Origin: Eledone cirrhosa
Lineage: Eukaryota
NCBI GenBank assembly: GCA_964016885.1
Contig: OZ024742.1
Span: 96,844,001-96,908,000 of the forward strand
DNA: 64,000 nucleotides
Reading direction: 5' to 3'
The notes under the pieces are model-generated. The model was given only the letters and a program-made list of their open reading frames with translations, searched no databases and had not been told where the DNA came from. The position numbers and the translations under genes are program-made. This document shows, one piece after another, positions 29,815-30,274 of this stretch; position 1 is the first letter of the stretch; every line of letters begins with the position of its first letter.

Positions 29815-29979
29815 ATATATATATATATATATATATATATATATATATATATAATGTAGGAGGTGAGTTTTATTATAGTACAATAAAGCAATGCAGATAT
29901 CGGATAAGAAGCACTCTACAGTTTGTAGGACTGGAGTATACATAATATAAGATCAAAAGATGGTTAAAGGAGTTCCATG

Positions 29980-30051
29980 TATTTTATTATGCGCATTTCA
30001 AAAACAAACATCATCATGCAATAATATTTGTGTTTTCATCAGATAAAACAG
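29980..30051 (-). ncRNA. Minimal type I hammerhead ribozyme (minus strand)
   Basis: Reverse complement reads TTTTAT CTGATGA ...stem II... GAAA TGCGCA TA ATAAAA; intact core. Confidence 0.82.
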
Positions 30052-30167
30052 AAGAACATGATATGAAGGCTAAAAAACACTTGTGGATAGTGCAGTTTTA
30101 AATCAACATATGTTGATTTAAAACTGCACTATCCACAAGTGTTTTTTAGCCTTCATATTATCTTCTC

Positions 30168-30240
30168 CTGTTTTATCTGATGAAAACACAAATATTATTG
30201 CATGATGATGTTTGTTTTTGAAATGCGCATAATAAAATAG
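30168..30240 (+). ncRNA. Minimal type I hammerhead ribozyme (plus strand)
   Basis: CTGTTTTAT [CTGATGA] AAACACAAATATTATTGCATGATGATGTTTGTTTTT [GAAA] TGCGCA [TA] ATAAAATAG; 9-bp stem I; palindromic stem III; predicted cleavage after 30231. Confidence 0.85.
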
Positions 30241-30274
30241 ATGGAACTCCTTTAACCATCTTTTGATCTTATAT

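What the first reader, a model, noticed from the sequence alone, without database searches (positions are those of the whole stretch)
29945..30274. 330-bp palindrome with intact hammerhead ribozymes on both strands
Seen: a spacer-less palindrome whose arms each contain a complete type I hammerhead (long stem I, CUGAUGA, long stem II, GAAA, palindromic UGCGCA stem III, AUA site). A transcript of either strand would be a rod-like RNA carrying a self-cleaving motif. Known: minimal hammerheads with palindromic stem III occur in Penelope pseudo-LTRs and retrozymes and cleave best as dimers; ribozymes in both polarities of a rod are a hallmark of viroid-like RNAs. Inference: this may be a small non-coding fold-back ribozyme element mobilised by Penelope RT, or a one-off inverted pLTR duplication. 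The full rod fold would compete with the hammerhead fold, so cleavage is not guaranteed.
Basis: partly seen in the sequence, partly recalled or inferred. Interest (0 to 1): 0.85.

Follow-up and report, generated by a model that had tools for sequence, protein, structure and literature searches.

The report
Fold-back stub of Penelope-like retrotransposon
The hairpin with a hammerhead-ribozyme motif on each strand is real, but it is two head-to-head copies of the end of an abundant Penelope-like jumping gene, likely joined afresh at each insertion rather than spreading as a viroid-like RNA.

Summary
The palindrome is confirmed: centre 30109|30110, 165-bp arms, 4 mismatches, and a minimal type I hammerhead motif on each strand. 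The unit is about 420 bp (29852-30274), because the left arm carries a further ~90-nt 'tail'. The arm is the pseudo-LTR (pLTR) of a young, abundant Hydra-clade Penelope-like element. A full-length parent (pLTR+tail, 800-aa RT/GIY-YIG ORF, 3'UTR, pLTR) lies in the same genome, with at least 150 RT copies at 99-100% identity. Inverted insertions are the family norm: 71 of 76 pair one tailed with one untailed end, 172 of 179 ends abut (TA)n, and junctions vary. Partner arms often carry different family alleles (a 3-nt deletion is discordant in 12 of 12 pairs), so the palindrome is likely built from two cDNAs at insertion, not copied as a unit. The centre is a 5'-boundary hot spot, perhaps a capped transcription start, where self-complementary ATAT could anneal two cDNA ends. 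A read-through rod would bury the ribozyme (-252 versus -159 kcal/mol). Cleavage and expression are untested. The scan reported such stubs before in other genomes. Verdict: a known structure in a new family.

The parts
29852..30111 (-). Long (tailed) arm: pLTR from parent position 251 through the tail to the long end (parent ~507-510; the last 3-4 nt overlap the TA run)
   Evidence: 98.9% identical over 261 nt to the 5' pLTR+tail of full-length copy L035
30108..30274 (+). Short (untailed) arm: pLTR from parent position 251 to the short end (~417)
   Evidence: 97.2% to the parent pLTR; carries family alleles C310 and G383 (left arm T310, C383) plus changes at 302 and 305, the latter seen in no other arm
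29852..29944 (-). ~90-nt tail, on one arm only; in the parent it runs from the 5' pLTR towards the ORF start.
30108..30111 (.). Self-complementary ATAT shared by both arms: the junction, and the family's 5'-boundary hot spot (candidate transcription start, inferred)
   Evidence: 64 of 181 arms begin at parent 247-255; 14 of 29 arms starting exactly at 251 are preceded by G where the parent has C
30169..30239 (+). Minimal type I hammerhead motif; predicted cleavage after 30231 (AUA); palindromic stem III suggests a dimer
   Evidence: core intact in 133 of 142 family arms
29980..30050 (-). Mirror hammerhead motif; predicted cleavage after 29988 on the minus strand
29816..29851 (.). (TA)n target, left flank
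   Evidence: sequence; 172 of 179 family ends are followed by (TA)>=4
30275..30541 (.). (TA)n target, right flank
   Evidence: sequence

Best explanation
The locus is a ~420-bp head-to-head pair of pseudo-LTR ends of a Hydra-clade Penelope-like retrotransposon inserted in a (TA)n microsatellite, likely assembled at insertion from two separately primed cDNAs. Shown: the arm is the pLTR of a coding element; one arm ends at a short site and the other ~90 nt further on; both 3' ends face outward into TA repeats; the arms differ by family alleles. Inferred: the element's RT-endonuclease nicks both strands of (TA)n and primes one cDNA at the long site and one at the short site. Both cDNAs run off the 5' end of their RNA templates at parent position 251, probably a capped transcription start. 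Their 3' ends then anneal through self-complementary ATAT, leaving a spacer-less palindrome. The hammerhead is the ordinary pLTR ribozyme, present on both strands only because the pLTR is inverted. The copy is probably a dead-end product.
For: Parent L035: pLTR+tail, 821-codon open frame (800 aa from ATG), ~1.3-kb 3'UTR, pLTR. It has the Hydra-clade motifs RW[T], DKT, CxCX5C, CxxC, CxH, plus YRDD and a GIY-YIG-like YFGST (definitions). All 150 scored RT matches are 99-100% identical, 20 in 821-codon frames. Of 181 arms, 154 form 77 outward-facing pairs, 72 long+short (71 of 76 without one duplicated locus, 54 of 58 in the search sets that did not require a tail). All 13 of 20 near-full-length copies with both ends in view are long+short. 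5' boundaries range from deep in the ORF to parent position 472. Only 5 of 48 pairs have identical arms; the 3-nt deletion is on one arm only in 12 of 12 pairs, G383 in 14 of 18, T310 in 9 of 11; the arms of L091 differ at 14 sites and match two subfamilies. Six of 36 internally truncated long arms stop at 400-425, at the short site, as twin priming on one RNA predicts. The 251 boundary also occurs in arms with no inverted partner and in one ORF-bearing copy, L112. Published: inverted 5'-truncated copies, a one-sided tail and (TA)n targeting (Craig 2021); both-strand nicking and two RT start sites defining the tail in vitro (Frangieh 2024).
Against: Many pairs share subfamily alleles on both arms (A353 on both 16, on one 2; T393 17 versus 1), and in the near-full-length copies all pLTRs of one insertion share one haplotype, so one donor RNA or fold-back copying is not excluded for every copy. 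The G before position 251 is partly ambiguous: in about 5 cases it is also partner sequence at the joint, in 3 it could be the partner's templated C (my reading), and p rises from 2.5e-4 to 0.07 under a one-in-three null. The search used a query ending at the junction and over-samples it. Pfam gave no RT or GIY-YIG hit for the parent ORF and no solved structure matched, so domain identity rests on motifs and on visual likeness to the published Hydra alignments.
Confidence: 0.85

Rival explanations
1. Same element, but the palindrome forms by self-priming (fold-back) of one cDNA or antisense template at the CATATG palindrome, as Arkhipova 2013 proposed for junction palindromes; arm differences arise later by mutation or gene conversion.
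For: The centre lies on a built-in 6-bp palindrome of the parent. Five of 48 pairs have identical arms, and subfamily alleles are mostly shared. The proposal is in PMC3846280.
Against: Copying one arm gives identical arms, yet recurrent family alleles are discordant (deletion 12 of 12). It does not explain why nearly every pair is one long plus one short end, nor the same boundary in unpaired arms.
Confidence: 0.08
2. A non-autonomous fold-back element that is transcribed as a rod or circle, self-cleaves in both polarities and is retrotransposed as a unit (retrozyme- or viroid-like).
For: The exact junction recurs in 8 of 77 pairs. The hammerhead core is conserved (0.6% deviation versus 2.9% in neighbouring unpaired positions).
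Against: The 8 loci have different haplotypes, and other complex junctions also recur with different alleles (L008/L020, L012/L024, L055/L078). Among 30 loci found with the tail, only the window itself has the exact junction. There is one cut site per strand and no tandem copy. The rod is -252.1 kcal/mol versus -158.7 with the hammerhead enforced. Core conservation is inherited from the active parent.
Confidence: 0.04
3. An assembly or library fold-back artefact.
For: Perfect hairpins next to long (TA)n runs are a recalled kind of sequencing artefact. No listed contig spans the whole locus.
Against: The arms differ at 4 sites, two of them segregating family alleles, and differ in length by the tail. 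The same architecture occurs at more than 70 loci. Short-read contigs show this junction type and both end sites (one study, possibly the source sample).
Confidence: 0.02

Closest known systems
Hydra clade of C-terminal EN+ Penelope-like elements (Craig et al. 2021, PMC8557442), e.g. Hydra-1_Obim, Penelope-13_HM
   Same: RWK-like, DKT and CxCX5C motifs, CxxC and CxH in the endonuclease, (TA)n target, type I hammerhead near the 3' end. Penelope-13_HM is listed with a 5'-truncated inverted copy and a hammerhead on each strand.
   Different: A distinct family: the hammerhead sequence and protein differ from Hydra-1_Obim. The element is longer (~1.3-kb 3'UTR; ~70-aa N/T/P-rich insert before the linker), stem II has 15 bp, and the tail is ~90 nt rather than 30-40.
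Inverted pLTR with junction palindrome and one-sided tail in EN+ Penelope elements (Arkhipova et al. 2013, PMC3846280)
   Same: Head-to-head inverted pLTR, palindrome at the junction, tail on one end.
   Different: That paper explains junctions by self-priming; allele discordance here points to two templates. The insertion here is reduced to the two pLTR ends.
PAc Poseidon element in vitro (Frangieh et al. 2024, PMC11167929)
   Same: Two RT start sites bounding the tail, AT-rich target, both strands nicked, hammerhead in the pLTR.
   Different: Different clade. In PAc the ORF starts within the hammerhead; here the ATG lies ~210 nt downstream of the predicted cut. The parts read (2 of 4) do not address pairing of the two start sites in one insertion.
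Non-LTR retrozymes (bioRxiv 10.64898/2026.07.22.740005) and viroid-like RNAs
   Same: Non-coding, type I hammerhead with palindromic stem III, pLTR-related.
   Different: Retrozymes are direct tandem repeats with at least two hammerheads on one strand. Here the copies are inverted, with one site per strand, so no unit-length monomer or circle follows.

Membership tests
EN+ Penelope-like element insertion | [quoted passage not shown] | tested here: met
   L035; YRDD, YFGST and linker motifs; 36-39% identity to 7 homologues. Pfam gave no hit
EN+ Penelope-like element insertion | Partial tandems and an adjacent inverted 5'-truncated copy | tested here: met
EN+ Penelope-like element insertion | Tail at one end only | tested here: met
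   71 of 76 pairs, 13 of 13; ~90 nt versus 30-40 nt published
EN+ Penelope-like element insertion | Hammerhead motif in the pLTR | tested here: met
   Motif and pairing; Rfam models do not detect it
Hydra clade | RWK motif, DKT, CxCX5C linker, CxxC and CxH around the conserved E and N | tested here: met
   RLRWT (K changed to T), SDKTN, CNCRIKNKC, CNLC, CLH against the definitions
Hydra clade | (TA)n insertion preference | tested here: met
   172 of 179 ends
Hydra clade | Phylogenetic placement inside the clade | not tested
   No tree with the published reference proteins was built; likeness was judged by eye against the supplement
Active hammerhead ribozyme | Self-cleavage as monomer or dimer | not testable with these tools
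   In an isolated arm the hammerhead fold is within 0.2-1.0 kcal/mol of the minimum; the stem III self-duplex is -10.5 kcal/mol
Non-LTR retrozyme | Direct tandem units with two or more hammerheads on one strand | tested here: not met
   Inverted arrangement with one site per strand; definition
Non-LTR retrozyme or viroid-like RNA | Propagation of the unit as a whole | tested here: not met
   Same-junction loci have different haplotypes and arms are discordant
Non-LTR retrozyme or viroid-like RNA | Circular RNA | not testable with these tools
   No RNA run was available to lay

The most novel reading that the evidence does not exclude
The ATAT centre is a back-to-back pair of capped start sites with promoters inside the arms. 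Each mini-palindrome would then send out two short hammerhead RNAs that the element's enzyme copies in trans and re-joins. The stubs would form a non-coding family that is split into halves and rebuilt, with allele shuffling, at every jump, and obligatory long+short dual priming would be the general origin of inverted pLTRs.
Probability: 0.15. Interest if true: 0.65.

Novelty: new member of a known kind. Interest (0 to 1): 0.27.

Why it matters
As a locus it is ordinary. The family is useful because how Penelope-like elements make inverted pLTRs and one-sided tails is stated as open in Craig 2021 and Frangieh 2024. This young, high-copy family with intact ORFs gives countable signatures: near-strict long+short pairing, different alleles on partner arms, and a sharp 5' boundary with a possible cap-derived G. 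These favour dual priming over self-priming and can be tested with two marked RNAs in the published in vitro system.

Tried and rejected
Rfam gave no hammerhead hit. A 70-bp junction query found nothing in the genome, not even the window itself, so it is uninformative. No RNA holder was listed; this says nothing about expression. Laying four DNA-type contig sets from one study gave fragments only and none spanning the locus; depth there is not copy number. Pfam and solved-structure searches of the parent ORF gave no meaningful hit. 5' truncation at the hammerhead cut site is not favoured: 2 of 181 arms begin at 372-378. A link between this element and the neighbouring inverted duplication (29264-29853) was not supported: 42 of 175 ends have an inverted repeat within 500 nt versus 16 of 88 control TA runs. 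No two-sided compensatory change was seen in the hammerhead stems; common variants are one-sided and keep pairing, which is weak support. Identity with Hydra-1_Obim was rejected. A look-up of earlier notes on this genome returned none.

Full report
Observation. The inverted repeat is centred at 30109|30110 with no spacer and 161 of 165 positions complementary; it is the best non-simple palindrome in the window. Each arm reads, away from the centre, as a type I hammerhead: 8-9-bp stem I, CUGAUGA, 15-bp stem II, GAAA, self-complementary AUGCGCAU and an AUA site, with predicted cuts after 30231 (+) and 29988 (-). Rfam does not detect it, and stem II lacks the usual G-C opening pair. In an isolated arm the hammerhead fold is within 1 kcal/mol of the minimum. 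In the whole palindrome the rod (-252.1) beats the enforced hammerhead (-158.7).

What it belongs to. The arm matched 42 near-full-length places among 40 scored of 142 candidates, so counts are lower bounds. Several copies continue upstream into a 3'UTR and an ORF. L035 is complete: pLTR plus tail, an 821-codon open frame, ~1.3 kb of 3'UTR and a second pLTR. Its protein has RLRWT, SDKTN, YRDD, CNCRIKNKC, YFGST, CNLC and CLH. These are the features that Craig et al. 2021 give for the Hydra clade (section 11 read whole). It resembles but differs from Hydra-1_Obim (supplement). All 150 scored RT matches are 99-100% identical and 20 sit in 821-codon frames, so the family is young and large.

True boundaries. 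The left arm runs ~90 nt beyond 29945 to 29852-29855; the right arm stops at 30274. Both 3' ends face outward into (TA)n.

Family anatomy. From 110 loci of three searches I extracted 181 arms reaching a 3' end. Of these, 154 form 77 outward-facing pairs and 27 are unpaired (far end out of view, or no inverted partner). Of the 77 pairs, 72 are long+short, 2 short+short (inside multi-arm clusters), 1 long+long and 2 have atypical ends. Dropping one duplicated locus (L066) gives 71 of 76, and 54 of 58 in the sets that did not require a tail. Of 20 ORF-intact copies, 13 had both ends in view and all 13 are long+short. 172 of 179 ends abut (TA)>=4. Junctions range from inside the ORF to the tail, with a hot spot: 64 of 181 arms begin at parent 247-255, including 33 of 97 in the two sets whose queries lie away from the junction.

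Unit or product? The window's exact junction occurs in 8 of 77 pairs, but those loci have different haplotypes, as do three pairs of loci sharing other complex junctions. Only 5 of 48 pairs have identical arms. A 3-nt deletion allele is on one arm only in 12 of 12 pairs carrying it, G383 in 14 of 18 and T310 in 9 of 11. The window's own arms differ at 310 and 383, and L091 joins two subfamilies. Against this, older subfamily alleles are mostly shared by both arms and intact copies have uniform pLTRs, so whether the two templates are two pLTRs of one RNA or two RNAs is open.

Mechanism. Frangieh 2024 (parts 1-2 of 4 read) shows a Penelope-like enzyme nicking both strands of AT-rich DNA and starting at two sites that bound the tail. 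I infer one cDNA from each site, each primed from one nick. Six of 36 truncated long arms stop at the short site, as in L1 twin priming (recalled, not read). The 251 boundary appears in unpaired arms and in one ORF-bearing copy. 14 of 29 arms starting there are preceded by G rather than the parent's C (p=2.5e-4 against base composition, 0.07 against one in three; about 8 cases have another possible source). A copied cap G is recalled from L1, so 251 may be the transcription start. Two run-off cDNAs ending in ATAT can anneal, which gives exactly this junction. Schostak 2008 (abstract and Discussion) reports an internal pLTR promoter in D. virilis Penelope, which keeps the novel case open. I put the identity at about 0.97 and the dual-priming steps at about 0.65-0.7.

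Comparison. Inverted 5'-truncated copies, one-sided tails and (TA)n targeting are described in Craig 2021 (passages) and junction palindromes in Arkhipova 2013 (passages). Dimer-dependent, weak pLTR hammerheads are described in Cervera 2014 (passages) and a review (PMC6765202, passages). Six literature searches listed no paper describing this family, strict long+short pairing or a cap-G boundary in these elements. The library lacks most subscription journals and Repbase, so this does not show absence. Earlier scan notes on other genomes reached the same general reading; they are not independent evidence.

Verdict. A real feature, a known kind of structure, a new Hydra-clade family. Interest 0.27, mostly for the mechanistic signatures.

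Noticed in passing
window 49843-~52600 (+): A second, different Penelope-like element (broken RT and GIY-YIG-like frames, weak RVT_1 hit E=0.01) with its own spacer-less 98-bp fold-back centred at 49940|49941 and a hammerhead-like core near 52445.
   Followed up: partly
window 29264-29853: A ~290-bp inverted duplication of host sequence (a MITE-like end plus TA-rich DNA) next to the element's long end; such repeats are not enriched at element ends.
   Followed up: partly
window 31788-33285 (-) and 38179-39391 (+): Diverged, broken relatives of the Hydra-clade ORF, 29-52% identical in pieces.
   Followed up: no
flanks of L103, L105, L060, L019, L069, L072, L097 and others: The same (TA)n arrays hold small fold-back insertions of other repeat families, some with hammerhead-like cores, so these arrays look like shared landing sites.
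   Followed up: no
L035:5060-5146: The 5' junction of the full-length copy is a short inverted duplication of host flank around a TA run.
   Followed up: no
L035 ORF residues ~595-660: A ~70-aa N/T/P-rich insertion before the cysteine linker, absent from 7 homologues; it recalls the N-rich inserts of Adineta Penelope elements.
   Followed up: no
window 1-~7000 and ~58300-59500: Large tandem arrays with ~32-33-bp and 30-bp units.
   Followed up: no
window 10505-10613: 41-bp inverted repeat with a 27-bp spacer, non-simple sequence.
   Followed up: no
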